Shown in pieces: positions 5,987 to 37,407 of a stretch of DNA of 64,000 nucleotides (position 1 is the first letter of the stretch; the number at the start of each line of letters is the position of its first letter). The notes beneath the pieces are model-generated. The model saw nothing but the letters and a program-made list of their open reading frames with translations. It made no database searches and was not told the origin of the DNA. The stretch is from a virus: positions 4,406 to 68,405 of the IMG/VR virus record IMGVR_UViG_3300035695_000003; one strand, 5' to 3'. The translations under genes and the position numbers were made by a program.

Positions 5987-6513
5987 TACAGGCCGATGCT
6001 CACCAGCGACACGAACGCCCGCGGCTTGGTCGGCGCGTCGAGCGCCGCCCCGAGCGCCAGCCGCGGCTCGATCTTGACCGGCAGCCCGAACACGCGGAAC
6101 AGCGTCAGTCCGCCCGACGACGCGTGCTTCGCCGCCGCGAGTGCCGAATCGTCGGCGGCCTTGAGATCGACGATCTCCTTGCGGAGCGTCGCGTTCTCCT
6201 TCTTCAGGTCCGAGATCTCGCCCGAGTCCGACGCCGCGGCCAGCTCGACCTTCGTGACGAGCGGCGCGCAGACCGGCGGGACGAGCTTCTCTGCCGCGCG
6301 AACGCCGGCCCACCGCGTCATGCGCACCGTGTCGGTCTTGGCAACGCGTCCGCCGAGGCTGTCCACCACGTGCTCGGCCGAGTCTGCCTCGGCCCTCAGT
6401 TCCTTGTTGGCGGCGAGCTCTGCGCGGACCGTCGGCCCCTTGACGAGACCGTCGACCGTCATGCCGGCGAAGAACGCCAGCACGACGACGATCAACCAAT
6501 AGCCGGCTTTCAT
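5986..6513 (-). CDS. membrane-anchored coiled-coil protein
   Basis: MKAGYWLIVVVLAFFAGMTV (TM) followed by a coiled coil (ISDLKKENATLRKEIVDLKAADD). ATGA coupling to the upstream gene. Confidence 0.55.
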   Translation of the reverse strand: MKAGYWLIVVVLAFFAGMTVDGLVKGPTVRAELAANKELRAEADSAEHVVDSLGGRVAKTDTVRMTRWAGVRAAEKLVPPVCAPLVTKVELAAASDSGEISDLKKENATLRKEIVDLKAADDSALAAAKHASSGGLTLFRVFGLPVKIEPRLALGAALDAPTKPRAFVSLVSIGL

Positions 6514-7857: not shown

Positions 7858-8340
7858 TCAGTCCTTGTAGAAGCGGAAGTATTCGCGGTCGATGTTGCCC
7901 GGGGGCACGACCTCGGTGCGCGTCGCGGCCCAGGCCGGCGCGGAGTCTTTCGGGACCATGGACGCGGGCGAATAGTACCACAGCGCGCCGAATCCCGGCG
8001 CGACAGCCAGGTATTCGCCCGACGACCAGACGTCGATGCAGCGCTGCACGTGCATCGGCTCCCAGAGCCCAGCCATCGCCTTGACCCAATAATCTTGCCG
8101 GCACACGGCGCTGAACTGGTTCTTCTGGAGCACGACCTCGACGGCCGTGCCCGGGAAGCGCGCGTCTGCCACCCGGTTCCTGATCACCTGACACACGGCC
8201 TTGATGGCCGGCACGATCATGTCCGCCGTGAACGTCCCCACGGGGGCGGGCGGGACCTCCGTCGCCGCCGTGCAGGCCACGACGTAGTCCGGCCCGTTGC
8301 AGTCGATCATGTCAAGTCTCCTCTCTTGGACGATCTTCAT
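7858..8340 (-). CDS. cell-wall hydrolase, SleB/CwlJ (Hydrolase_2) family; endolysin candidate
   Basis: MKIVQERR.. with ..VIRNRVADARFPGTAVEVVLQKNQFSAV.. (conserved QxNQFS core). The upstream 30 codons of the track ORF are the antisense of a tRNA. Confidence 0.65.
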   Translation of the reverse strand: MKIVQERRLDMIDCNGPDYVVACTAATEVPPAPVGTFTADMIVPAIKAVCQVIRNRVADARFPGTAVEVVLQKNQFSAVCRQDYWVKAMAGLWEPMHVQRCIDVWSSGEYLAVAPGFGALWYYSPASMVPKDSAPAWAATRTEVVPPGNIDREYFRFYKD

Positions 8341-8428
8341 GGCGCCGCCAGGATTCGAACCTGGGATGTTCACCACGTGGGTGGCGGTTTTACAGACCGC
8401 TGCCTTCAGCCTCTCAGACCACGTCGCC
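8340..8428 (-). tRNA. tRNA-Tyr (anticodon GUA), class II with a long variable arm
   Basis: Minus-strand sequence GGCGACG-UG-GUCU-GAGAGGCUGA-AGGC-A-GCGGU-CUGUAAA-ACCGC-CACCCACGUGGUGAACAUC-CCAGG-UUCGAAU-CCUGG-CGGCGCC-A. All four stems pair, with one A:G mismatch in the acceptor stem. Confidence 0.75.
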
Positions 8429-8445
8429 ATAGTCGTTGGTGACGG

Positions 8446-10611: not shown

Positions 10612-11135
10612 GACTTCTCCTTCTTCGCGTAGAAGAGCGCGGCCGTCCCGGGCGACTTGGCCCGGTCGTCCACGAGGTTCCCGTGAGCGGTGGCGTCGGC
10701 GAGGATCGCCGCGCACGCGAGGATCGCGCCCAGGTTCGTGTTGCCTCTCTTGGAGTCGCGGTCGACGTCGTCGCCCGCCTCGTACGCCGCCACGTGGCGC
10801 TTGATCGCGGCGACGTAGACGCTGATCTTCACCGGCACGTCGCGGAAGTTGTACGCGCCGTACTTGTCCGCGCCTTCTTCCATCGTGTCGGCCGTCAACG
10901 CCGTAGCTGCCGGCGGCACGAGATGCAGCGCCAACTTCTTCGCGGCGGCCGCGGTCTTCGGATTGACTGCCGGCCGCTCAGGCGCGTTCTTGCCGTAACT
11001 GGCCCCGCATTTCGGACAGACCCAGAAGCCCTTGATCTTGTCGAGGATCGCCTCCTCGCATCCGAACTTGGTGCAGACGCTGGTCGGCGATAGGCCCTGG
11101 TCCTGATCCGTCGCGTAATTGGCGCGGGTCGTCAC
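10608..11135 (-). CDS. Zn-ribbon protein with a possible all-alpha NTP-pyrophosphohydrolase (MazG-like) domain
   Basis: GTG start in GTGA overlap. CTKFGCEE..CPKCG zinc ribbon; ..MEEGADKYGAYNFRD..NTNLGAILACAAILAD.. loosely resembles MazG/HisE-type EExxE helices. Confidence 0.4.
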   Translation of the reverse strand: MTTRANYATDQDQGLSPTSVCTKFGCEEAILDKIKGFWVCPKCGASYGKNAPERPAVNPKTAAAAKKLALHLVPPAATALTADTMEEGADKYGAYNFRDVPVKISVYVAAIKRHVAAYEAGDDVDRDSKRGNTNLGAILACAAILADATAHGNLVDDRAKSPGTAALFYAKKEKS

Positions 11136-11659
11136 GGCAACACCAGGGCCTTCACGACGTCGAGCCCCGACTGCAGGTCGCCCACGATGTAGCCCGCGAG
11201 CTGGTTCACCATCGCGTGGTGGTGCGGGTTCGTCTTGCCGAGCGCCACGACGTCCGTGGCGGCGTTCTTGACCGGCAGCGCCTGATACTCGACGCCGCCC
11301 TCCATGATCACGACGAGCGGCACGCGGAACGCGTCCGCCCATCCGATCTCGATCATGGACCCCACGGAGATGCGCTCGGCGCCGAGCAGGTTCATCAGCA
11401 CGACGTCGGCGCGACGCACGTCTTCCCGATCTCTGGTGCAGATGCCTTTCGGCGCGCTCAGGGGATGCACGCGCTGGTAGGCCTCGGGCGATCCGTCGAT
11501 CTTCTCCTCGCCTTTCAGGTACTGCTTCGCCCGCAGCGGGCTGAACCCGTCGATGTGCATCAGGTGCAGCGCGTACTTCGCCGCCTCGCGCCAGTCCGTC
11601 GCGCCGCCGTAGCTCAGGCCCGTGATCGGACCGGCAAGATAGACCCGGGGTCTGCTCAT
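11132..11659 (-). CDS. nucleoside 2-deoxyribosyltransferase-like protein
   Basis: N-terminal VYLAGPITG, ..ADVVLMNLLGAE..IEIGWADAFRVPLVVI.. typical of the Nuc_deoxyrib_tr/DNPH1-like fold. Confidence 0.55.
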   Translation of the reverse strand: MSRPRVYLAGPITGLSYGGATDWREAAKYALHLMHIDGFSPLRAKQYLKGEEKIDGSPEAYQRVHPLSAPKGICTRDREDVRRADVVLMNLLGAERISVGSMIEIGWADAFRVPLVVIMEGGVEYQALPVKNAATDVVALGKTNPHHHAMVNQLAGYIVGDLQSGLDVVKALVLP

Positions 11660-14926: not shown

Positions 14927-16771
14927 TCAGCGCGCCAGCTCGTTCGCGTCCATGGGATCGACGTTCTCTTGCAGCAGGTCGCGCATGTCGCGCCGGACGA
15001 CGCCGGCGTCGAGCGCCGCCTGCACGTAGGCCTGCAGCGCCTGGGCGCCGGTCTTGAGCCCTGCCCGGAGCGCCGCGTCCTTGATGCCGTCCTTCGCCTG
15101 CGCCGCCGTGGAGCCCGGATGCCGGCGCACCCAGTCCAGCACCACGGGGATCATGACGAGCGCCGGGTCGGGCGCCGCGTCCGTGACGCGGAACTCGGGC
15201 GGCGCGCCCGGATGCTCGACGAGCTCCGTCTCGAACGGGCGCCAGCCCACGATCCGACCGATCCCGATCGCCTCGCGGCGCGAGCCGCCGCCGCCCCGGT
15301 CGGGATTCCTGTAGATGATCACCTGGTCCACGGCACCGCCGATCGCCGTCGAGTCGCGGTACTCGTCCGAGGCGCCCTTCGGCGCGTGGTGGACGAGCGT
15401 GACCGCGGCGCCGCCCTTCTGGCAGACGCGTCGCAACGGGATCAGCGTGTTCACCCAGCCCGCGGATTGGCTCGCCTCTTCGACCGCCGCGAAGTGCGCC
15501 ATCGTGTCGATGACGACCCACGACGGATGAAGCCGTGTCAGCTCGGCCTCGAGCTCCGCGAGGCGACCGTCGAACTCGGCCGCGCGCGGGTACAAGACGT
15601 GCATCATCGCGGGGTCGCCGCCGAAGCGGACGAGGCGCTGCGCCACGTCGGCCTCGGGTTCTAAGTCGGCGCTTACCCAGAGCACGGAGCCCAGCGGACA
15701 CGTCTCGCCGAAGAACTTGCGACCGCGCGTCACCGCGGCCGCGGCGGCCGTCAGGAGCGTGGACTTGCCCGCCCACTTCTCGCGGCCCGCGAGCAGCGTC
15801 GTTCGGCCTTGCCAGGCGAGGCGCGGCACCACGGCGAGCGGCGGCCGCATCGTGTTCGGGTCTTTCAGGAGCTCTTCCACGCTGCGGGCGACGTTCGCCT
15901 CGGCCTCGACGCCGGCCCCGCCGCCCGGACGGGCCCGGCGCACCGTGTGCCGGAGCAGCGTGATCTGGTTGCGCGTCTCTTTCCACTTGTCGCGGAACAG
16001 CGCGCTCGCGGCCATCGCCTCGACGACGGCATTTTCCGTCGCGCCTGGCTGACGCCAGAGGATCTTCGCGAGGTCGAAGTCGGCCTCGGAGCGCCGACCT
16101 TCGTAGAACTCGCCCGCGTCGAACAAGGCAAAAAAGCGCCGCGCCTCGCGGCTGCCGCGCGCCTGCTCCACGAGCGACTTGGCCACGGCGTCGATCTCTG
16201 CCTGCGCCGCGGCCGGCGCGGGCGCCGTCGCCTCGGCGCCGCCCACGAACTTCTTGTGCAGGCCCGCGAGCGGCAGCGAGAGGTCCGGCAGCGCCGTCCG
16301 TCCCGGCTGCACCACGTCGCCCGTGATCGCGAAGTAGCGCGGGGACGACGCGTCGTACATCTCGACGTCGTCCTTGCGCTTGCCGCCCGCGGGGAGCGCG
16401 CCCCGCGCGATGAAGTGCAGTCCGGCGCCCGACTGGCTGCGCTCGACGTAGGCGCCCGCCAGCGCGCCCAGGAACTCGGCGGCGACGGCGTTCGGCCCGT
16501 CGGGCCCGAGCGCGTCGTCCAGGTCCACGCCGACGTACGACGTCGCCGTGAAGACGAACCCGACGCCCGAGTAGCCGCCGCCCGCGGCCAGCGCGAGCTG
16601 CGCGTCGCCGAACGACGCCCAGTCCCGCTCGTCCGTGGTCTTGGCCTTGCGACCGTCGATCGTGTACGGGACCTTCGTCTTCTTCGGACGCCCGACGTCT
16701 TCGAGACGCCAGAGCACCCACCGCTTGAGGCCGCGCAGCTCGGCCGGGATCTTCTCCGGATCGAGCGTCAC
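14927..16771 (-). CDS. bifunctional primase-polymerase (N-terminal) / P4-type replicative ATPase (C-terminal)
   Basis: Prim-Pol motifs ..VGVDLDD.. and ..SGAGLHF..; Walker A LAGREKWAGKSTL; Walker B ..WVVIDTM... Confidence 0.85.
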   Translation of the reverse strand: MTLDPEKIPAELRGLKRWVLWRLEDVGRPKKTKVPYTIDGRKAKTTDERDWASFGDAQLALAAGGGYSGVGFVFTATSYVGVDLDDALGPDGPNAVAAEFLGALAGAYVERSQSGAGLHFIARGALPAGGKRKDDVEMYDASSPRYFAITGDVVQPGRTALPDLSLPLAGLHKKFVGGAEATAPAPAAAQAEIDAVAKSLVEQARGSREARRFFALFDAGEFYEGRRSEADFDLAKILWRQPGATENAVVEAMAASALFRDKWKETRNQITLLRHTVRRARPGGGAGVEAEANVARSVEELLKDPNTMRPPLAVVPRLAWQGRTTLLAGREKWAGKSTLLTAAAAAVTRGRKFFGETCPLGSVLWVSADLEPEADVAQRLVRFGGDPAMMHVLYPRAAEFDGRLAELEAELTRLHPSWVVIDTMAHFAAVEEASQSAGWVNTLIPLRRVCQKGGAAVTLVHHAPKGASDEYRDSTAIGGAVDQVIIYRNPDRGGGGSRREAIGIGRIVGWRPFETELVEHPGAPPEFRVTDAAPDPALVMIPVVLDWVRRHPGSTAAQAKDGIKDAALRAGLKTGAQALQAYVQAALDAGVVRRDMRDLLQENVDPMDANELAR

Positions 16772-22317: not shown

Positions 22318-22421
22318 CTGTGCCTCAGCAGCACGACGGCCAGGATCGTCAGCCACAACGCCACCGTGACGACGATCAGCAGCAGGTCTTTCCAGCTCTC
22401 GCCCTTCTTCCAGCCGCTCAT
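22314..22421 (-). CDS. tiny single-TM peptide
   Basis: MSGWKKGESWKDLLLIVVTVALWLTILAVVLLRHR. Confidence 0.3.
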   Translation of the reverse strand: MSGWKKGESWKDLLLIVVTVALWLTILAVVLLRHR

Positions 22422-22744
22422 CGCGTGCCCCGGTCGCCCGTCGCGCGCGCGACGTCGCAGTCTGCCGCGCAGCCCTGGTGGCGCATCCGCCCGCACCCCG
22501 AACAGCTGGCGCCGGAGTTCGACATCGGCTGCACCCATTGCGTCTGCCGGAGCAGCTCCGTCAGGTACTCGATCCGCCGCTCGTCGTGGTGATCCAGCGT
22601 CCAGCGCACGTGCGCCGTCGCCCCGATCACGTCGCGCGACTCGACGGAGCCGGCCACCTGCTCGGGCTGGCCGTGCTCGCCCGCGTGGTAGCGCTCGAGC
22701 AGCAACACCAGCAACTTCAGCTCGTCCTTGTCCAGCTTCTTCAT
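22418..22744 (-). CDS. hypothetical protein
   Basis: MKKLDKDELKLLVLLLERYHAGEHGQPEQVAG..; C-terminal CSGCGRMRHQGCAADC. Confidence 0.55.
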   Translation of the reverse strand: MKKLDKDELKLLVLLLERYHAGEHGQPEQVAGSVESRDVIGATAHVRWTLDHHDERRIEYLTELLRQTQWVQPMSNSGASCSGCGRMRHQGCAADCDVARATGDRGTR

Positions 22745-22771
22745 GCGTCGGTCCTTTCGTCGGGCTTCTCT

Positions 22772-22829
22772 GGCCTCGTCAGCGCGGGCCTGACCCGCGG
22801 ACCGGCCCGTGCGGGCGCCGGTTTCGGCC
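22772..22829 (-). ncRNA. type II hammerhead ribozyme (copy A)
   Basis: Minus-strand RNA: GGCC-GAAA-[helix III CCGGCGCCCGCACGGGCCGG]-U-C / cleavage / [helix I CGCGGG-UCAGG-CCCGCG]-CUGACGA-GGCC. Every invariant hammerhead core nucleotide is present (C3U4G5A6N7G8A9, G12A13A14, A15.1:U16.1, GUC cleavage triplet, G10.1:C11.1). The 5' G overlaps the UAG stop of the upstream gene. Confidence 0.8.
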
Positions 22830-23380
22830 TACCAGCGCGAGTCCCAGTCCTCCTCTTCGTAGGCCCGCACGTTCTCGACCAGCGTCGCCCGCTTCACGAG
22901 CCCGTGCCGAACCGCCGTCGCGACGCCCAGCTCGAAGTACGTCCGCGGCGCCTTCAGGACCCGCCGCAGCCGCTGCACCGTCGTGATCTCGTCCGTCACG
23001 TCTTCGCCGCCCGCGGCGTCGAAGCCCTCGATGAAGTGCTCCACGTCGTCGACGTCGACGCGGAGGATCCGCGCTGCCGCGCTCGTCTCGTTCGCCACGT
23101 CGTCGACCGAGTTCTTCATGAGGATCACCGCGGCCATCGCGCAGGCCTCGTCGTCGCGGTCGCACACCCACGCGCGCTCCGTCCCCGGCTCCACCGGCAC
23201 GTCGCGCGTCGCGAGCTGGTTCTGCTCGAGCGTCTCGAGCGCCTGCCGCTCGATGCCCCACGTGCCGGTCACCAGCGTCACGCGCCCGATCTTCTTCATG
23301 CGCCGGATCGACTGGTCCACGACCTCGCGCGTGGACGCCAGCGTGCCGTGCCGCCATCCCGATCTCTTCGGCTTCGCCAT
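22829..23380 (-). CDS. hypothetical protein; gene flanked by the two hammerheads
   Basis: 183 aa, MAKPKRSGWRHGTLASTREVVDQSIRRMKKIGRVTLVTGTWGIERQALE..; SD GAAAGGGGAG before ATG 23380. Confidence 0.6.
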   Translation of the reverse strand: MAKPKRSGWRHGTLASTREVVDQSIRRMKKIGRVTLVTGTWGIERQALETLEQNQLATRDVPVEPGTERAWVCDRDDEACAMAAVILMKNSVDDVANETSAAARILRVDVDDVEHFIEGFDAAGGEDVTDEITTVQRLRRVLKAPRTYFELGVATAVRHGLVKRATLVENVRAYEEEDWDSRW

Positions 23381-23402
23381 CGTGCTCCCCTTTCTTGGTT
23401 CT

Positions 23403-23468
23403 GGCCTCGTCAGCGCCGGCGTCTACCGGCGGACCTGCACGGGCCCGAAGGCCCGGCAGGTTTCGGCC
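23403..23468 (-). ncRNA. type II hammerhead ribozyme (copy B)
   Basis: Minus-strand RNA: GGCC-GAAA-[helix III CCUGCCGGGCC-UUCG-GGCCCGuGCAGG]-U-C / cleavage / [helix I CGCCGG-UAGACG-CCGGCG]-CUGACGA-GGCC. Same invariant core as copy A, with a UUCG-capped helix III. Confidence 0.8.
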
Positions 23469-23470
23469 TG

Positions 23471-23989
23471 CTACTCGACCAGCGCGATCCCGCCTTCGGG
23501 CGCGGGCTCCTCCTCGCCGAGCGTCTCCTCGGCCTCGGGCGTCGCCGCCGGCACGGGCTGCGCGGGCTGCGGCGCGGTCACCTGCCCGCCCTCCGCGCCC
23601 GTCAGGTACACGTGGCCCGTCAGCTGCACGATCTCCACGTCCCGGTCGGCGACCGTCTGGTTCTCCTGGAGCTCGCCCTGACACAGGTGGCTCACCTGCG
23701 GGTCCGCCAGGACGGCGTCGATCACGAGCGCCCGCGCCGCCTGCGCGCTGGCCGCCGCGACCACGAAGTTCCGCTGCTGCCGGCCCGTGGACTCGCCCGT
23801 GGCCGTGTCCATCACGTCGGCGTAGACGGTCGCCTTGAACAGCCGCCGCGCCACCGGGATCAGCCCGCCGGCACCCTTGATCGCGTGGATGGCGTCGGCC
23901 ACGGCGTACGAGCCGCCTTCGTCCGAGGCCTGGAACTGCTCCAGCAGGAGCCGGAGCGCCATCTTGCCCTTCTTGTGCATCGTCGACAT
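23471..23989 (-). CDS. hypothetical protein
   Basis: MSTMHKKGKMALRLLLEQFQASDEGGSYAVADAIHAIKGAGGLIPVARRLF.. Confidence 0.6.
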   Translation of the reverse strand: MSTMHKKGKMALRLLLEQFQASDEGGSYAVADAIHAIKGAGGLIPVARRLFKATVYADVMDTATGESTGRQQRNFVVAAASAQAARALVIDAVLADPQVSHLCQGELQENQTVADRDVEIVQLTGHVYLTGAEGGQVTAPQPAQPVPAATPEAEETLGEEEPAPEGGIALVE

Positions 23990-23993
23990 TCGT

Positions 23994-24227
23994 CTACTCC
24001 TCTTTCCGCAGGAAACCGGCCGCCACGAGCGAGGCCAAGAACCTCGCCGCCGTTGCCGGGTCGATCAGCGGGGCGCCCGGCCGCTGCTCGTGGCAGCGCC
24101 GGCTCACCTCGCGCATGTAGGGCCCCTTCTGGTCCATCTCCATCCACGCGGCGCGCGTCATCTTGCGCACCACGACCCGCGCCGTCGGGCCGGCGAACGT
24201 CTTGCCGCCGCCGTCCGCGTACCGCAT
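23994..24227 (-). CDS. hypothetical small protein translationally coupled to the GATase gene
   Basis: TGATG stop/start junction at 24225-24229; MRYADGGGKTFAGPTARVVVRKMTRAAWMEMDQKGPYMREVSRRCHEQ.. Confidence 0.4.
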   Translation of the reverse strand: MRYADGGGKTFAGPTARVVVRKMTRAAWMEMDQKGPYMREVSRRCHEQRPGAPLIDPATAARFLASLVAAGFLRKEE

Positions 24228-25246
24228 CAGTCCCCCTTTCCCGTCAGTGCCCGCCGCGCCTCGTCGCGCGCGGCCTCGTGGACCCACTTCCCGTCGCGCC
24301 ACTCGTCGCCGCGGCGCCAGCTGGTGGCCGCCACCGCGCACGAGGAACAGAGCCGGACCCCGTTGATCGTGGCCATCTCGAACGGCTTCCACAGGTCGAG
24401 GCACGACCCGCACTTCTCGTACTCCTGGCCGTTCTGGCCCCAGATCTTCGTCGTGCCGAGCTGGGCGCGCCGTTTCTTGCCGCCCTTCTTCTGCGTCTTC
24501 CCGGCCCACCACCAGCTGGCCCGCGGGCTCTCGCCCGGCCGGTAGCGCACGAGCACGCCTTCGTCCAGCTCGCTGGTGCCGTTGCACGTGAGCCGGCTCA
24601 GCTCGACGGCGGCCGTCAAGATGTCCTTCGTGCTCGCGAAGGCCACCGCGTTCAGCTCGGCGACCCGCGTCCGCCACAGGGGATTCCCGCGCCGCGTCAG
24701 CCACAGCTCGGGCTCTCCGTCCGTGCCCTGTCGGCCCAGCGCCAGCGCCAGCGAGCCCTCGGCGCGCCGGAGCATCTTGCCCCAGCCGGCCGCGGGCTCG
24801 ACCGCGAGCGCCGCGATGAGGTTCGCCGAGTCGACGGCGTAGGTCGTGCCGCCCCGCGCGACGAACCGCGCGTGGTTGTTGATCACGCCGTTGTGCACGC
24901 CGACCGTCTCCGTGCCGTCCTCGTCCGCGAAGGCGAACGGGTGCGCGTTGGCGTCGGTCACCGCGCCGTGCGTGGCGAACCGCGTGTGCCCCACCAGCGC
25001 GAGCGTCGCGCCGTTCGGGACCACGAGGGCCTTCCATGCCGGATCGGCGATCAGCTCCCACGCGGGCACCGCCCGCTTGAGCACGTGCGCTGGCTCGCCC
25101 GCGTCCAGCCTGTACAGGCCGGCCGAGTCCGTCCCCCGCGCCGTCGAGAGCGCCGCCAGGCTCGCCGCGAGGCGCGCCCAGCCTGCCTTCTCGGCCTCGG
25201 TCAGCGCCGGGCCCTTCGTTCTGATGATGCCGTAGATGCCGCACAT
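24227..25246 (-). CDS. class-II (Ntn-type) glutamine amidotransferase-like protein with a C-terminal Zn-finger
   Basis: Starts MCGIYGIIRT (Cys-2 nucleophile, hallmark of GATase-II/Ntn hydrolases); ..HTRFATHG..NAHPF.. core; C-terminal CGSCLDLWKPFEMATINGVRLCSSC. Confidence 0.8.
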   Translation of the reverse strand: MCGIYGIIRTKGPALTEAEKAGWARLAASLAALSTARGTDSAGLYRLDAGEPAHVLKRAVPAWELIADPAWKALVVPNGATLALVGHTRFATHGAVTDANAHPFAFADEDGTETVGVHNGVINNHARFVARGGTTYAVDSANLIAALAVEPAAGWGKMLRRAEGSLALALGRQGTDGEPELWLTRRGNPLWRTRVAELNAVAFASTKDILTAAVELSRLTCNGTSELDEGVLVRYRPGESPRASWWWAGKTQKKGGKKRRAQLGTTKIWGQNGQEYEKCGSCLDLWKPFEMATINGVRLCSSCAVAATSWRRGDEWRDGKWVHEAARDEARRALTGKGD

Positions 25247-25721
25247 CGTCTGCCGTTCTCCTTTCAGCGGAACGCGTAATGATAACACAAACTGCTGCCG
25301 ACGACCATCCCGAGTCGGCGTCGATGCTACTATCTCTGCTGTCAGATAATCTGACAGTCGATCCGATGTTACCAATCGTCGTGTTCGGAAACGGCCTGAA
25401 CACGTGTCGCACAAGTGTTTAGCGTGTTCGCGAGTGTTCGGAACACCGTCGCTGGCCGCGTAACTTCTTATGCCGCTTTTGTTCAGGTGCTCTCGGGCAA
25501 AATCGTCATTGCTAACATCACCTCCGTTCTGGGTCCACGGAACGCCGTAACTTCTTATGCCGCTTTTGTTCCGCGTGTTCCGCGAACAGCCGGAACATTG
25601 GCATTGGCGTCGTGTTCCGCCTGTTCAGACCCTTAGGTCTGAACGGCGAACACCCATGCCCGTGTCAGAACACCTTCGATCATGGCGCCGCGAGGAGTCG
25701 AACCCCGTCGGCGCGGTCTGC
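25247..25721. promoter_or_regulatory. palindrome- and repeat-dense regulatory island (operator cluster and/or origin)
   Basis: 19-bp perfect palindrome CTGTCAGATAATCTGACAG (25339-25357). At least 5 GTGTTC...GAACAC inverted repeats (25381-25403, 25426-25446, 25576-25592, 25609-25655 nested). 26-bp direct repeat CGTAACTTCTTATGCCGCTTTTGTTC at 25459-25484 and 25546-25571. Confidence 0.5.
25681..25706 (-). other. tRNA 3'-end-like fragment (24/26 identical to the 3' end of the tRNA-Tyr gene at 8338-8363); candidate att core or tRNA remnant
   Basis: catggcgccgcGaggaGtcgaacc versus catggcgccgcCaggaTtcgaacc. The remainder does not fold into a tRNA. Confidence 0.4.
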
Positions 25722-25916
25722 CTACTTCAGGTACAGCACCCAGCCCCGCCGGGTGACCGCCATGCCGTGGTCGATGCCCTGGTCCGTCATGAAGGCAGCG
25801 ACCTCGCCCGCCGTGCTGCCGTTGGTGAACAGCGCCTTGCCCTGCTCGATCACGAAGCCTGCCAGCCTGGCGATCGTCGCCTGGCCGAGCACGCCTCCTC
25901 TCGCGATGCGCGTCAT
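25722..25916 (-). CDS. small protein encoded directly downstream of the amidoligase gene
   Basis: SD GAAAGGACG 8 nt before ATG 25916; MTRIARGGVLGQATIARLAGFVIEQGKALFTNGSTAGEVAAFMTDQGIDHGMAVTRRGWVLYLK. Confidence 0.5.
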   Translation of the reverse strand: MTRIARGGVLGQATIARLAGFVIEQGKALFTNGSTAGEVAAFMTDQGIDHGMAVTRRGWVLYLK

Positions 25917-25935
25917 CTGATCAGCTCGTCCTTTC

Positions 25936-27090
25936 TCAGGCGGCCCGCCGGAAGGCGGTCCGGTAATAGTCGGGGTTCCGGTCGAACGTCCACCGCGCCA
26001 GCGTCCGCTGGACGGCGTCGCCCATCACGATCCGCGCGAGCGACCAGCGCCGCGCTTCCGTCCACGGGGGCAGCACGCGGCGCGCCGCCTGCCGCTCCGT
26101 GCCGTCCCACGTCCGCGTCCGCTGCACGTGCAGCTCCAGCGCCCTGTCGAGCTGGTCGTCCGTGCAGCGCTGCGCGAAGTCGACCACCCGCTGCGTCGCG
26201 AGCAGCCACCAGCCTGCCTTGTTCGCGTCGAGCGTGCCCTGATGCGCCCGCATCTCGACGCGGCCGTGCCGCCACCAGTTGGTGAGGTTCAGCGCCTGGT
26301 AGCGCCCGAGCCTGCGCACGTGCGCCGGCAGATCCGTCAGCGCCGCCGAGTCTTCTGCGAACTCGCGACCCCAACGCTCGGCAAACGTGTTGCGCCGCCT
26401 GTCCGTGGGCAGCGCCTCGTGCAACGGCGTGTCGAGCGCGCCCCAGAGCCTGATCAGTCGCTGGACGAAGCCCGTCGTCCGCGCGACCCGCGCCTCGTGA
26501 TGCACGTGGAAGCCGCAGCGCCTGTCGACCCGCGCGCCCGCCGCGACCAGCGCGTTCAGCACGGCCACGACCATCGGCCAGCTCGCCGCCGTGATGGCCG
26601 GCGTCACCATCTCCCACTCGCAGCTGCCGTCGGCCTTGACGTCCCACGTTCGCCCGGTCGAATGGCGATACTCGTGATCGTCGCTGACCTGCTGTTCCGG
26701 CCACGGCGCGAGCGCTTCCCGCACCACGTCGGCCCACTCCGAGCCCGAGCGATATCGCGCGCCCGGCCCGCTCGGGTTGACGAACTCGAACTCCAGCCCG
26801 AAGCGCCGCCGCTGGTCCAGCATCGCTGGATCGAACAGCTCGCCCGGCCCGTCGGGATCGCCCGACCAGCCGATCGGATCCGGCACCGCGTCTGGCAGCG
26901 TCAGCGGGCTCGCCGGCAATTGCCGGCTTCCCCGTTGCCGCGGCCCGCGCGCCGCCTCGCTCCGGTAATACGACAGCGTGTGTCGGGGATCGGCGCAGGT
27001 CGGATGCCTGTCTCTCAGCATCCGCAGCACCGCGTCGTCCGACGCGCCGTTCGCGATGTACTCGCGAACGTCATGCGCTATCGAAGGCAC
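25936..27090 (-). CDS. amidoligase-family (GCS2/glutamine-synthetase-like COOH-NH2 ligase) protein with an N-terminal ~45-aa repeat domain
   Basis: GTG start after AAAGGGGG. N-terminal VREYIANGASDDAVLRMLRDRHPTCADPRHTLSYYRSEAARG (the repeat domain), a linker, then ..RFGLEFEFVNPSG.. (amidoligase G-x-E-x-E-F start) and ..CGFHVHHE... Confidence 0.65.
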   Translation of the reverse strand: MPSIAHDVREYIANGASDDAVLRMLRDRHPTCADPRHTLSYYRSEAARGPRQRGSRQLPASPLTLPDAVPDPIGWSGDPDGPGELFDPAMLDQRRRFGLEFEFVNPSGPGARYRSGSEWADVVREALAPWPEQQVSDDHEYRHSTGRTWDVKADGSCEWEMVTPAITAASWPMVVAVLNALVAAGARVDRRCGFHVHHEARVARTTGFVQRLIRLWGALDTPLHEALPTDRRRNTFAERWGREFAEDSAALTDLPAHVRRLGRYQALNLTNWWRHGRVEMRAHQGTLDANKAGWWLLATQRVVDFAQRCTDDQLDRALELHVQRTRTWDGTERQAARRVLPPWTEARRWSLARIVMGDAVQRTLARWTFDRNPDYYRTAFRRAA

Positions 27091-27180: not shown

Positions 27181-27224
27181 GTAACAACCACGTAACGGAA
27201 TTGTAACAATCGTGTAACAAAACG
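27181..27224. repeat. four tandem 11-bp GTAAC iterons upstream of the amidoligase gene
   Basis: GTAACAACCAC|GTAACGGAATT|GTAACAATCGT|GTAACAAAACG; GTAAC at 27181, 27192, 27203, 27214 (one helical turn apart). Confidence 0.6.
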
Positions 27225-28404: not shown

Positions 28405-28956
28405 TTTGACTCGTCCCTTTCTTGCGACACTCGCGTCAGCGCTACAGTGCAGCGTCCGCGCGATGTCAATCTTTCATACGGGGTAGCGCCCCGCGCGCCG
28501 CGAACCATCCTTCCGCCCGCGTGACCTAAAGCTACTAGCTTTATGGCGTAAAGCTAGTAACAATCGTGTAACGGAAAACCGTATATTTATAAGTCCCTCC
28601 GCCCCATGCCCGAGCACGAAAAATGTATAACTATACAGCCCGGTGAATAATTATTCATTTCATCGCGTCCGCGCGACATGCGCAGCGTGCGCGCTGCAAG
28701 ATAATGGCTCAAAGGCTGAAGGACGAAGGTCCGTCGCGCCGGCGCTGCAATTTCGGGGCGGGGGGTGCTGGAAAATCGGGCGGGGGCACTAGTCCGGCGA
28801 ATCGCATCCGGAATCGAGACTGATCCAGACCATGCGCGGACAACGGCTTGCAGCCCGTGGTCCCAGAACCTGGAAGCATGATTCGCGACGGTTCGCACGT
28901 GCGCCCACGATGCGCGCACTGGCGCGCACGACCCTCTCGACCTAGGTTCGCGACAC
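28405..28956. promoter_or_regulatory. AT-richer divergent control region between the leftward early and rightward late modules
   Basis: TTGACA at ~28448 (minus strand). GTAAC iterons AGTAACAATCGTGTAACGG (28555-28573). 15-bp palindrome AAAGCTACTAGCTTT (28526-28540). 12-bp perfect palindrome GAATAATTATTC (28644-28655). Bipartite motif at 28916-28951 (see findings). Confidence 0.5.
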
Positions 28957-30317: not shown

Positions 30318-31904
30318 GTGCCGACGGGGATCGACAGGCGCCGGCTCGCGACGCTCGAGCGCGAATGGGGCGAAGAGCTCGCGCGGCGAGAGCGCGAAGG
30401 CCAAGAGACGGACTACACGCGCTACGCGGACGATCCCGAGGGCTTCGTCCGCGAGGTGCTGCACGACGACAAGGTCTGGAGCGCGCACGACGAGGCGGAT
30501 CCCGAGATCGGCGGCACGCTCGAGATCATCCGGAGCGTGAAGGACAACGCCCAGACGGTCGTGCGCGGCGCCAACGCCATGGGGAAGGACCACACGGCGG
30601 CCGAGATCATCTGCTGGTGGGTGTACGCGTGCCACGGGCTGGCCATCGTCACGGGCCCGACGCAGCGGCAGGTCGACGAGATCGTGTTCGGCCGCGAGAT
30701 CAAGGGCCAATGGGCGCGCGCCGGACTCCCGGGCCGCGCCTTCGCCCGTGCCTTGCGCCCCGACTACGGCACCGACGACGTGAACGAGGACGGCACGTTC
30801 GCGTGGGGCGCCCTCGGGTTCGTCTCGACGGACCACTCGCACCTCACGGGCCATCACGGGCCCCGCGTCTTGTGCGTCGTGACGGAAGGCCAGGGCGTGG
30901 AAGACATGGTGTTCGACGCCATGTTCAACAACGCCACGGGCGCGAACGACCGGCTCTTGGTCGTCGGGAATCCGACGGACCCGGGCGGCCGGTTCTACAA
31001 GTCGACGAAGCCGGGCTCTGGCTGGCATTCCATCCGGCTCCGGGCCCAGGACCATCCGAACATCAGCCGCGAGGGTGCCAGGCCCGGCGACGACGGCTGG
31101 ATCTGGGGCGGACCCTCGCGCGAGTGGCTGGAGCGCGTCCGCCGCGAGACCCGCGACGAAGGCGGCGAGCGCAGCCGGTTCTGGCAGGTGTTCGTCGAGG
31201 CCCAGTTCCCCGAAGGCGCGACGGACGGCCTCGTGCCGAAGTCGTGGGTGCTCGCGGCCTTCAAGCGCTGGGAGACGGGCGACCGCGCCGCGGGCAACGG
31301 CCGGCCGCTCGTGATCGCGATCGACCCGATGCGGACGGGCGGCGACCACTGCGCGCTCTCGCCCGTGACGGGTCCCGTCGTCCACCCGCTGTATCACTTC
31401 CGGCCCGACGAGCGGAACCCGACGCTCGACATGGTGGCGAAGTGCGAGGCGCTCGCGGCCGCGTACGGCGCGATCGGGGCCGGGGCCGGCAGATCCGTGA
31501 CCTTCGTCGTGGACTCCGCGCTCATGGGCGGCGGCGTGATCGACGTGATGCGCTCGCGCGGCTGGGACGTGGTGGACTGGAACGGGAAGCGACGGGCCTC
31601 GGACGCCGAAGAGCCCGCGCGCTTCCTGGACATGCGCGCGTGGGGCTACTGGCTCCTGCGCGAGGCGTTCCGGCAGAACGTCCCCGTGATCAGGCCGGAC
31701 GACGGGCTCCTGGAAGACCTGATGGCGACGCGCTACGAGACGGGCGCCGCGGACCAGATCAAGATCATCGACAAGAAAGAGATCCGGCGGACGCTCGGGC
31801 ATTCGCCCGACAAGGCGGACGCCGTCATGATGGCCTGGACCATCGCCAACGGCGGCGGCTACGGCCGCGGTGCCGGAGACCCCGACGTGGACTACGGGAT
31901 ATGA
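30318..31904 (+). CDS. terminase large subunit
   Basis: 528 aa. ATPase region (..VVRGANAMGKDHTAAE.., ..LCVVTEGQG..) followed by a nuclease-like region (..LVIAIDPMRTGGDHCAL.., ..SPDKADAVMMAW..). Sits at the head of the structural module. Confidence 0.75.
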   Translation: MPTGIDRRRLATLEREWGEELARREREGQETDYTRYADDPEGFVREVLHDDKVWSAHDEADPEIGGTLEIIRSVKDNAQTVVRGANAMGKDHTAAEIICWWVYACHGLAIVTGPTQRQVDEIVFGREIKGQWARAGLPGRAFARALRPDYGTDDVNEDGTFAWGALGFVSTDHSHLTGHHGPRVLCVVTEGQGVEDMVFDAMFNNATGANDRLLVVGNPTDPGGRFYKSTKPGSGWHSIRLRAQDHPNISREGARPGDDGWIWGGPSREWLERVRRETRDEGGERSRFWQVFVEAQFPEGATDGLVPKSWVLAAFKRWETGDRAAGNGRPLVIAIDPMRTGGDHCALSPVTGPVVHPLYHFRPDERNPTLDMVAKCEALAAAYGAIGAGAGRSVTFVVDSALMGGGVIDVMRSRGWDVVDWNGKRRASDAEEPARFLDMRAWGYWLLREAFRQNVPVIRPDDGLLEDLMATRYETGAADQIKIIDKKEIRRTLGHSPDKADAVMMAWTIANGGGYGRGAGDPDVDYGI

Positions 31905-32950: not shown

Positions 32951-34831
32951 ATGGGCAACGCCAGCGGCGGCAACACCGGCAGCGCGAGTCCTTTCGGCTA
33001 CGGGATGAGCGGCAGCTTCGGCTCGTATCTCTCGGGGTACGGGCTGCGCGTGCCGTCCATCGCGGGAATCACGCAGCCGCTGCTGACGCCGACCTCGTGG
33101 CTCGACTTCATCGCCGAAGACTACGGGTTCAACGTCGGCCGATGGGTCTACGCGCGTGAACATTATACCGGTGAAGTTGCGGCGCCCTGGCGCATCTCGG
33201 CCTACCTGATCCGGAAGAAGATCGGCGAGACGATCGAGGCCTTCGAGGAGCGCGTGCTGCTCGCGGACTACACGCCGTATTTCGGCGCCGTGGTCGACAC
33301 GCTGGCGGGCATGCTCGTCGCGCGCGAAGACGAGACGGACCGCACGTGGGGCAAGAACGCGAAGGGCCGCTCGACCAAGAAGATGGGTCCGCTCGGACAG
33401 ATCCACGACCAGAGCACGATCCTCGGCCGTCTGTGGGTCGATGCCGACGGCCAGCACAACTCGTGGACGAGCCTGTGGCAGATGCTCGCCACGGAGCTCG
33501 TCGCCGTGCACACGTCGTGGATCTTCGTCGACGGCGGCGCGAACGGGCTCGACCCGAAGATCAAGCTGGTGCAGGCCGAGGCCGTGAGCAACTGGCTCTA
33601 CGACCCCGACGGCAAGACGCTGATCCAGGCACTGATGAAGATCCACATCGACGTCCGCACGAGCGTCAAGGAAAATCCGCGGACGGGCTGGGAGACGCAG
33701 TGGGTCCTCTTCACCGTCGACGGCTGGCAGCGCTGGCACAAGGTCCGCAAGGAGGTCGCGGGCCAGGGCGCGTCGAACGACCAGACGGTCGTCGAGGTGC
33801 CCGAGATGATCGACGAGGGCACGTGGCACTACGAGACGCGCGCGGGCGACCGGACCATCCCGCTGCTCCGCGTGTCGCTGCCGCTCAAGCGCAACGTCGG
33901 GTACCTGCTCGCGCGGAAGTGCAACGCGATCTTCAACAAGGAATCGGAGCGCGACCACCTGCTCCGGTTCGCGACGTTCCCGCTCCTGAACATCGTCGCC
34001 GAAGACACGATGTTCAAGCGCATCGAAGACCGGCTCCGGCTCGGCAGCCGCGTGCTGCAAGCCAAGCCCACGGGCGGGGCGTCGGGCGCGCACCACTTCA
34101 TCGCGCCGCCCGCAGAGCCCGCGAAGACGATGGCGGACGCGATCAAGGAAAAGGTCGAGGCGTTCTACGCCGTGGCCTTCCGCGAGTTCGCGAGCGCCGT
34201 GTCGAACTTCAACCGCGACCGCGTCACGGCCACCGAGGTCTTGACGCAGCGCGAGGTCGGCCTCGAGGCGTTCCTCGCCGTCGTGTCGACCGCCGTGGAC
34301 AACGCCGAGAACCAGACGCTCTGGTTCCTGGAGCAGACGGTCTTCCCGAAGGACAAGAGCAAGTGGGGCCAGGCCCGCGTGGAACGGCCGAAGAACTTCG
34401 GGCCGATCAACCCCGCGCAGGCGATCGAGGCGCTGAAGGCGCGCTACGTCGGCGGCGGTCCGCTGCCCGCGGGACGCGCGGCGCAGATCAGCGCGATCAA
34501 GCGCATCGCCGAGTTCGACGGCATCGAGTTCGACGAGAACGAGATCAGCGAGGCCCTGGACTCGGCGCAGCTCGCGCAGTTCGCGGCGACGGTGCAGCTG
34601 ATCTGGCCCGACGCGCCCGACGAGCTCAAGGCCGAGATCATCGCGCAATGGGGCGAGTCGGCAGGGTACGGCACCAAGGACGACCTCAAGACGAAGGCCC
34701 TGGCGCAGCTCGAAAAGAACGCCAAGGCCAACGCCCAGAAACCGTCTAAGCCGGCCGGCGGCAACGCGAACGGCCCTCCCAAGAACGACGCGGATCCCAC
34801 CCGCGTGGACACGGCCGGCATGAACGCCTGA
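32951..34831 (+). CDS. portal protein (by size, position and composition)
   Basis: 626 aa immediately after the terminase block; acidic C-terminus. Confidence 0.55.
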   Translation: MGNASGGNTGSASPFGYGMSGSFGSYLSGYGLRVPSIAGITQPLLTPTSWLDFIAEDYGFNVGRWVYAREHYTGEVAAPWRISAYLIRKKIGETIEAFEERVLLADYTPYFGAVVDTLAGMLVAREDETDRTWGKNAKGRSTKKMGPLGQIHDQSTILGRLWVDADGQHNSWTSLWQMLATELVAVHTSWIFVDGGANGLDPKIKLVQAEAVSNWLYDPDGKTLIQALMKIHIDVRTSVKENPRTGWETQWVLFTVDGWQRWHKVRKEVAGQGASNDQTVVEVPEMIDEGTWHYETRAGDRTIPLLRVSLPLKRNVGYLLARKCNAIFNKESERDHLLRFATFPLLNIVAEDTMFKRIEDRLRLGSRVLQAKPTGGASGAHHFIAPPAEPAKTMADAIKEKVEAFYAVAFREFASAVSNFNRDRVTATEVLTQREVGLEAFLAVVSTAVDNAENQTLWFLEQTVFPKDKSKWGQARVERPKNFGPINPAQAIEALKARYVGGGPLPAGRAAQISAIKRIAEFDGIEFDENEISEALDSAQLAQFAATVQLIWPDAPDELKAEIIAQWGESAGYGTKDDLKTKALAQLEKNAKANAQKPSKPAGGNANGPPKNDADPTRVDTAGMNA

Positions 34832-36261: not shown

Positions 36262-37407
36262 GTGGCCAACCTGCTCACCAGCGGGCTCGCGTACAACCCG
36301 TACTTCTACGCGCAGACCGCGCTGCAGGTGCTCTACAAGCGCCTGGGCATGGCGTTCTACGTCAACCGCTCCATCGAGCGCGACAAGGGCTCGGCCAAGG
36401 GCGACACCATCCAGCTCCGCCGGCCCAAGAGCCGCACGCCGCAGAACATGCCGATCGCACTGGCATCGTTCGCGGACGTCACCCCGGACTACACCAACCT
36501 GGTGATCAACCAGTGGATGGGCGACGGCTTCCGGCTGACGGACAAGGAAAAGACCCTGACGCCCGAGATGTTCGTCACGGAGCACATCGCTCCCGTGGCC
36601 GCGGGCATCGCGGACCAGATCGACCAGAACCTGGCCGGCCTGGCGCTGGAGTGCCCCTGGATCGTGGCGGCCGACGGCACCACGCCGACGAACGACTTCG
36701 GCAACGCGCGGCTCACCCTGCTCCAGAACAAGGCGCCGCTCGTCAACGAGCGGGACTACGCGTACCAGACGGATCCCATCATCCAGTCCCGGTACGAGAA
36801 ATCGCTCACCTTCCTGCAGGCCAACACCGCGACGGACGCGGCCCTGCAGCGCGAAGGCCAGCTCGGCGTGAAGTTCGGGTTCCGCATCTTCCCGAACCAG
36901 AACGCGCCGACCTACGCGACCGGCACGGGCGCGCTGACCAGCCCGATCACGTCTGCCAGCCCCGCGGTCGGGGCGACGCAGATCACGATCACCGGGACGT
37001 CCGGTTCCGGCACGCTGAAGCGCGGCACGGTGATCACGATCACCGGCGACCCGCAGCTGTACGCGGTCACCGCGGACGCGGCCGTCGGCGCGACCAGTGT
37101 CACGGTCTCGATCTCGCCCGCCCTCGCGGCGGCGCCGAGCAACGGCACCGTGGTCAGCTTCACGCAGACCTCGTCCAACTCGATCGGCCTCGCGTTCCAC
37201 AAGAACGCGTTCGCCCTCGTGCTGCAGCCGCTCGAGGACGCGGGCCCGGGCATCATCAGCGCCACGGTGACCGACCCGATCACCAACCTGTCCATGCGCT
37301 CGCGCGTGTGGGGAGACGGCGGGTCCGGCGCGACCTTCTGGGCGCTCGACGCCCTCTGGGGTTACAAGACGCTCAACCCGAACCTCGCGACGCGCGTCCA
37401 GATCTAA
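36262..37407 (+). CDS. major capsid protein
   Basis: 381 aa; GTG after GGAGG; follows the scaffold gene; composition typical of HK97-fold coat proteins. Confidence 0.6.
   Translation: MANLLTSGLAYNPYFYAQTALQVLYKRLGMAFYVNRSIERDKGSAKGDTIQLRRPKSRTPQNMPIALASFADVTPDYTNLVINQWMGDGFRLTDKEKTLTPEMFVTEHIAPVAAGIADQIDQNLAGLALECPWIVAADGTTPTNDFGNARLTLLQNKAPLVNERDYAYQTDPIIQSRYEKSLTFLQANTATDAALQREGQLGVKFGFRIFPNQNAPTYATGTGALTSPITSASPAVGATQITITGTSGSGTLKRGTVITITGDPQLYAVTADAAVGATSVTVSISPALAAAPSNGTVVSFTQTSSNSIGLAFHKNAFALVLQPLEDAGPGIISATVTDPITNLSMRSRVWGDGGSGATFWALDALWGYKTLNPNLATRVQI

What the first reader, a model, noticed from the sequence alone, without database searches (positions are those of the whole stretch)
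22772..23468. Two type II hammerhead ribozymes bracket a single gene in the leftward early operon
Two minus-strand intergenic spacers (22772-22829 and 23403-23468) each encode a complete type II hammerhead: 5'-GGCC-GAAA-[helix III hairpin]-GUC / cleavage / [helix I hairpin]-CUGACGA-GGCC-3'. Every invariant core nucleotide and the G10.1:C11.1 and A15.1:U16.1 pairs are present. Copy B has a UUCG tetraloop on an 11-bp helix III.

The two copies share the core and helix II but differ in helix I and III sequences. They covary to keep pairing, which argues for function rather than recent duplication. Predicted cleavage is between 22800/22799 and between 23432/23431 (minus strand). Self-cleavage would release the 22829-23380 ORF, with its SD, as a monocistronic RNA carrying a 5'-OH and a 2',3'-cyclic-phosphate 3' end.

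Copy A starts on the last base of the upstream UAG stop; copy B starts 2 nt after another UAG.
Basis: partly seen in the sequence, partly recalled or inferred. Interest (0 to 1): 0.85.

Follow-up and report, generated by a model that had tools for sequence, protein, structure and literature searches.

The report
Two hammerhead ribozymes flanking a phage gene
Two small self-cutting RNA motifs (type II hammerhead ribozymes) sit on either side of one gene of unknown function in a phage operon and should cut its message out of the long transcript. This arrangement has been described in prophages since 2011.

Summary
Minus-strand 22829..22772 (copy A) and 23468..23403 (copy B) each hold a complete type II hammerhead. 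All core nucleotides, the three core-adjacent pairs, closed helices I and III and a 4-bp open helix II (GGCC/GGCC) are present.

- **Chance:** a strict motif scan finds only these two in 64 kb, and none in 200 shuffles.
- **Rfam:** Hammerhead_II scores 30.9 and 30.1 bits, below the gathering score of 37 (window-wide E 0.03-0.04).
- **Independent model:** a covariance model built only from 25 viral-contig sequences scores them 59.5 and 54.7 bits. The next hit in the window is 13.5 bits.
- **Subfamily:** 135 distinct members have 99.6% paired cells and strong covariation. They share an invariant A before GGCC, a 6-bp helix I with a UNANG loop, and a stop codon just upstream. Both window copies fit.
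- **Context:** an uncultured phage, in the sense strand of a replication-gene operon.

The predicted cuts (23432|23431 and 22800|22799) would release a 632-nt message for a 183-aa protein with no detectable relatives. Cleavage itself is untested. Clustered hammerheads flanking single prophage genes were reported by Perreault et al. 2011, so this is a new member of a known kind.

The parts
23403..23469 (-). Hammerhead ribozyme copy B (type II). It comprises the conserved A at 23469, helix II 5' strand GGCC 23468-23465, GAA 23464-23462, helix III hairpin 23461-23433 (12 bp including A15.1:U16.1, one bulged U, UUCG loop), C17 at 23432, helix I hairpin 23431-23414 (6 bp, loop UAGACG), CUGACGA 23413-23407, and helix II 3' strand GGCC 23406-23403.
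   Evidence: The isolated element folds to the three-way junction as its minimum-energy structure (-43.8 kcal/mol, z -4.1).
22772..22830 (-). Hammerhead ribozyme copy A (type II). It comprises the conserved A at 22830 (middle base of the UAG stop), GGCC 22829-22826, GAA 22825-22823, helix III hairpin 22822-22801 (6 bp, bulged G, 2 bp, loop CGCAC), C17 at 22800, helix I hairpin 22799-22783 (6 bp, loop UCAGG), CUGACGA 22782-22776, and GGCC 22775-22772.
   Evidence: The isolated element folds to the three-way junction as its minimum-energy structure, but with 119 nt of context an alternative fold is predicted (ensemble frequency 0.009).
23431..23432 (-). Predicted cleavage site of copy B: 3' of C17 (23432), leaving a 2',3'-cyclic phosphate on 23432 and a 5'-OH on 23431.
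   Evidence: Position follows from the core alignment. The chemistry is established knowledge of hammerheads. Not tested here.
22799..22800 (-). Predicted cleavage site of copy A: 3' of C17 (22800).
   Evidence: Not tested here.
22800..23431 (-). Predicted excised RNA of 632 nt. It has a 51-nt 5' leader (helix I hairpin of B, CUGACGA, GGCC, then the Shine-Dalgarno sequence AAAGGGGAG), the 183-aa ORF, and a 29-nt 3' trailer ending in the helix III hairpin of A.
   Evidence: Inference.
22829..23380 (-). Bracketed gene: 183 aa, GC3 0.97, no family match and no relative found.
   Evidence: The AlphaFold2 model is unusable (pLDDT 42).
23471..23989 (-). Upstream gene: 172 aa, GC3 0.98, no family assignment. 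Its UAG ends 2 nt before copy B.
22418..22744 (-). Downstream gene: 108 aa, GC3 0.94, no family match. Its AUG lies 27 nt after copy A, preceded by GAAAGGA.

Best explanation
These are two functional type II hammerhead self-cleaving ribozymes, encoded in the sense strand of two consecutive intergenic spacers of a minus-strand phage operon.

As the polycistronic RNA is made, each element folds into a three-way junction: helices I and III as hairpins, and helix II as a 4-bp GGCC/GGCC duplex between the two ends of the element. Each then cuts itself 3' of C17, at 23432|23431 and at 22800|22799.

In the type II arrangement the two products are held together only by the 4-bp helix II, so they should separate quickly. 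Each upstream product would end in the stable helix III hairpin with a 2',3'-cyclic phosphate. Each downstream product would begin with a 5'-OH followed directly by the helix I hairpin, with its Shine-Dalgarno sequence left free.

The net result would be a 632-nt monocistronic message for the 183-aa protein, and separation of the messages on either side. Stability and translation of neighbouring genes would then no longer be linked.

Shown here: the motifs, their subfamily membership, their position and their strand. Inferred: cleavage in vivo, end protection by the hairpins, and the effect on expression.
For: - **Motif:** complete core and helices in both copies. Only these two sites occur in 64 kb, and 0 in 200 shuffles.
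- **Rfam:** Hammerhead_II is the best Rfam family for both, with E 4e-4 and 6.6e-4 locally.
- **Independent model:** a covariance model built from 25 viral-contig sequences, none from the window, scores them 59.5 and 54.7 bits against 13.5 for the next hit.
- **Covariation:** across 135 distinct subfamily sequences, 99.6% of cells are paired, 543 cells have changes on both sides, and 0 of 500 shuffles reach this. Slid controls give 31-40% paired.
- **Features not used to find the subfamily:** the window copies share an A before GGCC (115/115 viral sequences). They also share the helix I design: 17 nt in 100/115 and 18 nt in 9/115, with the first loop base U in all 100 of the 17-nt helices, A third and G fifth.
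- **Position in genes:** among 204 subfamily elements, 166 have an ORF of at least 60 codons ending within 15 nt upstream on the sense strand, against 24 on the antisense strand. The commonest layout is the UAG overlapping the first G, as in copy A.
- **Bracketing elsewhere:** 46 same-strand ribozyme pairs lie under 1.5 kb apart in other loci, and in 30 of them one ORF fills at least 70% of the interval.
- **Folding:** both isolated elements fold to the junction as their minimum-energy structure.
- **Transcription:** no terminator-like or sigma-70-like site lies between the genes, and coding signal is continuous on the minus strand.
- **Literature:** clustered prophage hammerheads cleave about 2-kb polycistronic RNAs in vitro and in E. 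coli (PMC3088659). Type II hammerheads near phage-like genes in D. vulgaris cleave in vivo (PMC8782182).
Against: - No cleavage data exist for these two copies.
- Both score below the Rfam gathering threshold. This is the norm for the subfamily: only 5 of 37 copies in 12 related loci reach it.
- The loop I to 3'-tail pseudoknot that speeds many type II hammerheads is absent from the subfamily and from both copies, so the rate at physiological Mg2+ is uncertain.
- With 119 nt of native context, copy A is predicted to prefer another fold, although only weakly (frequency 0.009, z +0.5).
- No homologous spacers from related phages exist to test conservation at this locus.
Confidence: 0.8

Rival explanations
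1. The motifs are genuine hammerheads, but they are slow or conditional rather than constitutive cutters. Cleavage could be gated by folding competition, or by ribosomes. A ribosome terminating on the UAG that overlaps copy A, or that ends 2 nt before copy B, would cover the 5' strand of helix II and part of helix III. Processing would then depend on translation of the upstream gene.
For: - There is no loop I to tail pseudoknot.
- An alternative fold is predicted for copy A in context.
- A stop codon lies 0-15 nt upstream in 166 of 204 subfamily members, often overlapping the ribozyme.
- Perreault et al. raise regulated cleavage for slower phage variants (PMC3088659).
Against: - Close packing after a stop codon may simply reflect compact phage genomes.
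- The invariant A before GGCC explains part of the stop-codon overlap without any role for ribosomes.
- The tested prophage clusters cleaved efficiently during transcription.
Confidence: 0.12
2. Cleavage is followed by joining. Either the excised 632-nt RNA is circularised, or the two flanking RNAs are joined so that the 183-aa gene is skipped. Joining would be by reversal of the hammerhead reaction on a hybrid ribozyme assembled from halves of A and B, or by a host RtcB-type ligase acting on the 2',3'-cyclic phosphate and 5'-OH ends.
For: - Both copies have an identical core and identical helix II strands, so halves can in principle recombine.
- The gene-skipping hybrid (5' half of B plus 3' half of A) folds to a correct hammerhead as its minimum-energy structure (-43.2 kcal/mol, z -3.4).
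- The possibility is raised in PMC3088659.
Against: - Perreault et al. looked for spliced or circular products and detected none.
- The circle-junction hybrid (5' half of A plus 3' half of B) is predicted to misfold into a rod instead of the junction.
- A 4-bp helix II gives little hold on the products.
Confidence: 0.04
3. The elements are not ribozymes in this phage. They would be structured intergenic repeats that serve as terminators, RNase processing sites or protein-binding hairpins, or decayed relics that resemble a hammerhead.
For: - They are G+C-rich hairpins in a 68% G+C genome.
- The fold energy of copy A is not unusual for its composition (z -0.8).
- Both are below the Rfam threshold.
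Against: - All 13 or so invariant unpaired core nucleotides are intact in both copies, while the helices differ between them.
- They score 55-60 bits against an independent model.
- No U-tract follows either hairpin, and no terminator-like site is called there.
- No other copies of such hairpins occur in the window.
Confidence: 0.03

Closest known systems
Type II hammerhead ribozymes (Rfam RF02276, clan CL00010; Perreault et al. 2011, PMC3088659)
   Same: The catalytic core is identical, helix II is open, helices I and III are hairpins, and an A precedes the 5' strand of helix II as in the Rfam consensus. Some members of the same GGCC subfamily in viral contigs pass the Rfam threshold at 37-42 bits.
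   Different: Helix II is 4 bp rather than the 1-2 bp common in the Rfam consensus. There is no pseudoknot between loop I and the 3' tail. Helix III is long (22 and 29 nt). The Rfam scores of 30-31 bits are below the gathering score of 37.
Clustered hammerheads flanking single genes in prophages of Agrobacterium tumefaciens, Azorhizobium caulinodans and Clostridium scindens (Perreault et al. 2011, Figure 3, S1-S3)
   Same: Several hammerheads lie on one strand in neighbouring intergenic spacers of phage-derived operons, bracketing one gene or a short block. The gene identities are not constant. Processing into single-gene messages has been proposed, and cleavage was shown in vitro and in E. 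coli.
   Different: Here the setting is an unrelated, uncultured phage with its own family A DNA polymerase and no integrase found among the proteins I scanned. The bracketed gene has no detectable relatives, unlike ardA. Cleavage has not been tested.
Desulfovibrio vulgaris type II hammerheads loc 2 and loc 3 (Olzog et al. 2021, PMC8782182)
   Same: Two type II hammerheads lie a few hundred nt apart on one strand among hypothetical and phage-like genes. In vivo cleavage ends were captured as 2',3'-cyclic phosphate and 5'-OH.
   Different: They are about 250 nt apart in a bacterial chromosome. I did not compare their sequences with the window copies.

Membership tests
Hammerhead ribozyme, type II (RF02276) | Invariant core: C3 U4 G5 A6 N7 G8 A9, G12 A13 A14, and H17 at the cleavage site | tested here: met
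   Both copies read CUGACGA, GAA and C17 at the expected places.
Hammerhead ribozyme, type II (RF02276) | Standard pairs next to the core: 10.1-11.1, 15.1-16.1 (A:U) and 1.1-2.1 (acceptance rule of Perreault et al. 2011) | tested here: met
   G:C, A:U and C:G are present in both copies.
Hammerhead ribozyme, type II (RF02276) | Three-way junction with helices I and III closed by loops and helix II open | tested here: met
   The descriptor scan gives helix III 6 bp from the core, helix I 7 and helix II 4. The minimum-energy fold of each isolated element is this junction.
Hammerhead ribozyme, type II (RF02276) | Score at or above Rfam's curated gathering score (37 bits) | tested here: not met
   The scores are 30.9 and 30.1 bits. 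This is a database threshold and not a property of the RNA. Only 5 of 37 clear subfamily copies in 12 related loci reach it.
Hammerhead ribozyme, type II (RF02276) | Match to a covariance model built from independent members | tested here: met
   Model R1, built from 25 viral-contig sequences, gives 59.5 and 54.7 bits. The next hit in the window is 13.5 bits.
Hammerhead ribozyme, type II (RF02276) | Helices supported by compensatory change | tested here: met
   In the subfamily, 14 of 16 pairs show changes on both sides and 99.6% of cells are paired, with 0 of 500 shuffles as high. Between the two window copies there is one compensatory pair in helix I and one in helix III.
Hammerhead ribozyme, type II (RF02276) | Pseudoknot between loop I and the 3' tail. 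It is present in a majority of type II members but is not obligatory. | tested here: not met
   Complementarity between loop I and the tail in 183 subfamily members equals the swapped-tail control, and neither window copy has it. Another tertiary contact is likely, perhaps using the invariant A before GGCC and the invariant loop I U. That is inference.
Hammerhead ribozyme, type II (RF02276) | Mg2+-dependent self-cleavage 3' of position 17 | not testable with these tools
   This needs in vitro transcription or end-specific RNA sequencing.
Gene-flanking hammerhead clusters of phage and prophage operons (Perreault et al. 2011) | Two or more hammerheads on one strand in neighbouring intergenic spacers, bracketing one gene or a short block, in the sense orientation | tested here: met
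   The spacers are 23381-23470 and 22745-22828. One ORF (22829-23380) fills the interval, and all three genes and both ribozymes are on the minus strand.
Gene-flanking hammerhead clusters of phage and prophage operons (Perreault et al. 2011) | Phage or prophage setting | tested here: met
   The window encodes a P22-type coat protein, large terminase, portal, primase/helicase, family A DNA polymerase and a Pam3 gp34-like protein.
Intrinsic (Rho-independent) terminator | G+C-rich hairpin followed directly by a U-tract | tested here: not met
   No terminator-like site is called at either element. Helix III is followed by CCGC and helix I by CUGACGA.
Viroid-like or retrozyme hammerhead units that make circular RNA | Hammerheads flanking a non-coding unit whose ends rejoin into a ribozyme that ligates to a circle | tested here: inconclusive
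   The unit is a protein-coding gene (GC3 0.97) in a DNA phage. The circle-junction hybrid is predicted to misfold. No RNA data are available.

The most novel reading that the evidence does not exclude
The pair may do more than cut. Both ribozymes share the same core and helix II strands, so halves from different copies could reassemble. The ends could then be rejoined by ribozyme reversal or by a host RtcB-type ligase. The outcome would be either a circular message for the 183-aa gene or a joined transcript that skips it, which would amount to RNA-level cassette excision in a phage operon.

A milder variant is that cleavage is gated by ribosomes terminating on the stop codon that overlaps the ribozyme.
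Probability: 0.05. Interest if true: 0.8.

Novelty: new member of a known kind. Interest (0 to 1): 0.3.

Why it matters
The biological purpose of hammerheads in phage operons is still open (review PMC6765202).

This locus is a clean test case. It has exactly two ribozymes and one bracketed gene, and no other copies in at least 64 kb. However, the phage is uncultured, so the test would have to be done on cloned DNA.

The survey made along the way has practical value:
- The GGCC-helix-II subfamily is abundant in viral contigs.
- Most members fall below the Rfam threshold, so routine annotation misses them.
- Their fixed position on or just after a stop codon is a family-wide regularity that any functional model must explain.

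Tried and rejected
- **Relatives of the locus:** there is no DNA match to isolate phages. There is no tblastn match for the bracketed protein in phages. The 5.8-billion-protein search returned only the protein itself. There are no relatives of the 183-aa, 172-aa or 108-aa proteins in IMG/VR. The exact-sequence contig look-up found nothing. tblastn of 41 window proteins against all 204 ribozyme-bearing loci gave only distant hits and no synteny. Homologous spacers therefore could not be compared.
- **Bracketed protein:** Pfam, PHROGs and NCBIfam gave nothing. The AlphaFold2 single-sequence model had pLDDT 42, so I ran no fold search.
- **Other ribozymes or further copies:** the Rfam E-value scan of the whole window and the unfiltered scan with the subfamily model found none.
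- **Weak overlapping Rfam hits:** Twister-sister and RAGATH-28 matches are chance level, at E 4-5.
- **Pseudoknot:** rejected for this subfamily.
- **Terminator reading:** rejected.

Full report
**The observation**

Copy A runs 22829..22772. It reads GGCC, GAA, a 22-nt helix III hairpin opening with A and closing with U, C17 at 22800, a 17-nt helix I hairpin (CGCGGG-UCAGG-CCCGCG), CUGACGA, GGCC.

Copy B runs 23468..23403. It has the same order, with a 29-nt helix III (12 pairs counting A:U, one bulged U, UUCG loop) and an 18-nt helix I (CGCCGG-UAGACG-CCGGCG).

All invariant core nucleotides and the three core-adjacent pairs are present. The stated cleavage positions (22800|22799 and 23432|23431) and the stop-codon relations are correct.

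A strict type II descriptor that I wrote finds exactly these two sites on both strands of the window, and none in 200 shuffles.

**Covariance models**

At Rfam's gathering thresholds the window yields only a tRNA. With E-value reporting, Hammerhead_II (RF02276) is the best family for both sites:
- Scores are 30.9 and 30.1 bits against a gathering score of 37.
- E is 4e-4 and 6.6e-4 for the 951-nt region.
- E is 0.028 and 0.044 for the whole window.

To see whether sub-threshold scores count against them, I searched viral contigs for GGCCGAAAC..GTC..CUGANGAGGCC.

I built a covariance model from 25 of those sequences, with none from the window. Without filters it scores copy A at 59.5 bits and copy B at 54.7 bits. 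The next hit in the window is 13.5 bits.

In 12 related loci this model finds 37 copies. Rfam's threshold is reached by only 5 of them. Scores below that threshold are therefore normal for this subclass.

**The subfamily**

An alignment of 140 hits (135 distinct) shows:
- 99.6% of cells paired;
- 14 of 16 pairs with changes on both sides;
- 543 such cells, with 0 of 500 shuffles as high;
- 31-40% pairing when partners are slid.

Helices I and III were not constrained by the search pattern, so this is real support for the structure.

Several features outside the pattern are also fixed:
- The base before GGCC is A in 115 of 115 viral sequences.
- Helix I is 17 nt in 100 of 115 and 18 nt in 9.
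- The helix I loop has U first (100 of the 100 17-nt helices), A third (74%) and G fifth (82%).

Copy A matches the 17-nt design exactly, and copy B the 18-nt variant.

The first base after the 3' GGCC is A or G in 160 of 183 and almost never U. Both window copies have A there.

Complementarity between loop I and the tail is no higher than in a swapped control. The pseudoknot common in other type II hammerheads is therefore not used here. A contact involving the invariant A and the loop I U is my inference.

**Position relative to genes**

Among 204 subfamily elements with enough flanking DNA:
- 166 have an ORF of at least 60 codons ending within 15 nt upstream on the sense strand, against 24 on the antisense strand.
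- 192 have an ORF starting within 70 nt downstream.
- The commonest layout (50 cases) is a UAG whose G is the first base of the ribozyme, as in copy A.
- A 2-nt gap, as in copy B, occurs 22 times.

There are 46 same-strand pairs less than 1.5 kb apart (median spacing 616 nt). In 30 of them a single ORF fills at least 70% of the interval. One viral contig carries 11 copies in 5.2 kb.

The same pattern occurs in 84 stretches of bacterial genomes from many phyla.

**The surroundings**

The window is phage-like, with the following genes:

| Coordinates | Strand | Product |
|---|---|---|
| 36262-37407 | + | P22-type coat protein |
| 30318-31904 | + | large terminase |
| 32951-34831 | + | portal |
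| 14927-16771 | - | primase/helicase |
| 4022-6499 | - | SNF2 helicase |
| 58446-61040 | - | family A DNA polymerase |
| 25936-27090 | - | amidoligase |
| 24227-25414 | - | class II glutamine amidotransferase |

The coat protein is only 33% identical to its nearest isolate-phage relatives, and no DNA match exists.

Third-codon-position G+C (GC3) traces an unbroken series of minus-strand genes through the region. No promoter-like or terminator-like site separates them. The three genes around the ribozymes (172, 183 and 108 aa) have no family and no relatives.

**Mechanism**

*Shown:* two intact hammerhead motifs in the sense strand of consecutive spacers.

*From established hammerhead chemistry:* cleavage 3' of C17 gives a 2',3'-cyclic phosphate and a 5'-OH.

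*Inferred:*
- A 632-nt RNA (23431..22800) is released. It has a 51-nt leader, a free Shine-Dalgarno sequence and a 29-nt trailer.
- Upstream products end in the helix III hairpin, and downstream products start with the helix I hairpin. This would protect both ends.
- Products part readily, because only the 4-bp helix II joins them.

Both isolated elements fold to the junction as their minimum-energy structure. Copy A in a longer context has a weakly predicted alternative.

**Comparison with what is known**

Perreault et al. 2011 described natural type II hammerheads. [quoted passage not shown] They showed cleavage of about 2-kb polycistronic RNAs in vitro and in E. coli, and did not detect spliced or circular products.

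Olzog et al. 2021 captured in vivo cleavage ends for three type II hammerheads near phage-like genes in D. vulgaris.

A 2019 review still lists the purpose as unresolved.

The finding is therefore a correct new instance of a known kind.

**Less ordinary readings**

The gene-skipping hybrid of the two copies folds as a hammerhead, while the circle-junction hybrid is predicted to misfold. Neither reading has any direct support.

Gating by terminating ribosomes fits the stop-codon overlap, but it is not required by it.

**Verdict**

Novelty is low and interest is modest.

Noticed in passing
window 25415-25721 (minus-strand spacer upstream of the gene block that holds the ribozymes): This is a roughly 300-nt spacer of lower G+C. 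It holds a perfect 26-nt direct repeat, GAACAAAAGCGGCATAAGAAGTTACG, at 25459-25484 and 25546-25571, 87 nt apart, with 0 matches expected by chance. It also holds a 9-bp inverted repeat, GTTCAGACC-TAAG-GGTCTGAAC, at about 25623-25644. It may be the promoter or operator region of the transcript that carries the ribozymes.
   Followed up: partly
window 25684-25740, minus strand: A weak match to the tRNA-like mascRNA-menRNA family (28.5 bits, E 0.12) lies right after the stop codon of the 64-aa ORF 25722-25916. The sequence has a T-arm-like GGGGTTCGACTCC and ends GGCGCCA. ARAGORN calls no tRNA there. It could be a tRNA-like minihelix or a remnant of a tRNA 3' half.
   Followed up: partly
window 8339-8429, minus strand: A tRNA-Tyr (anticodon GTA) with a long variable arm, 43.2 bits, lies inside the replication-gene block. 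It overlaps a mechanical ORF at 7858-8430.
   Followed up: no
window 27181-27218 and 28557-28572: GTAACAATCGTGTAAC occurs twice exactly (27203-27218 and 28557-28572), with an 81% copy 22 nt away (27181-27196). These are possible operator sites near the divergent region of the genome.
   Followed up: no
window 24227-27090, minus strand: An amidoligase (25936-27090) and a class II glutamine amidotransferase domain protein (24227-25414) lie just upstream of the ribozymes. Elsewhere there is a nucleoside 2-deoxyribosyltransferase-like protein (11132-11659) and a methyltransferase (62643-63563). Together they hint at a nucleotide, DNA or peptide modification module.
   Followed up: no
related loci, e.g. 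L006:3339-3396, L029:2785-2842, L036:6651-6719: In 36 of 183 subfamily members the 3' tail is the exact complement of the core CUGAN, with perfect covariation at N7 (28 C with GUCAG, 8 U with AUCAG, none mismatched). This would allow an alternative hairpin that sequesters half of the catalytic core. The window copies lack it.
   Followed up: partly
L008:170-5158, minus strand (IMGVR_UViG_3300038412_000035): Eleven copies of the same hammerhead subfamily lie within 5.2 kb, about one per intergenic spacer. This is the densest array seen.
   Followed up: partly
window 22816-22821 and 23426-23431, minus strand: The 5' strand of copy A's helix III contains CCGGCG, the complement of the 5' strand CGCCGG of copy B's helix I. 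A hybrid of A's 5' half and B's 3' half is therefore predicted to form a rod instead of a hammerhead.
   Followed up: partly
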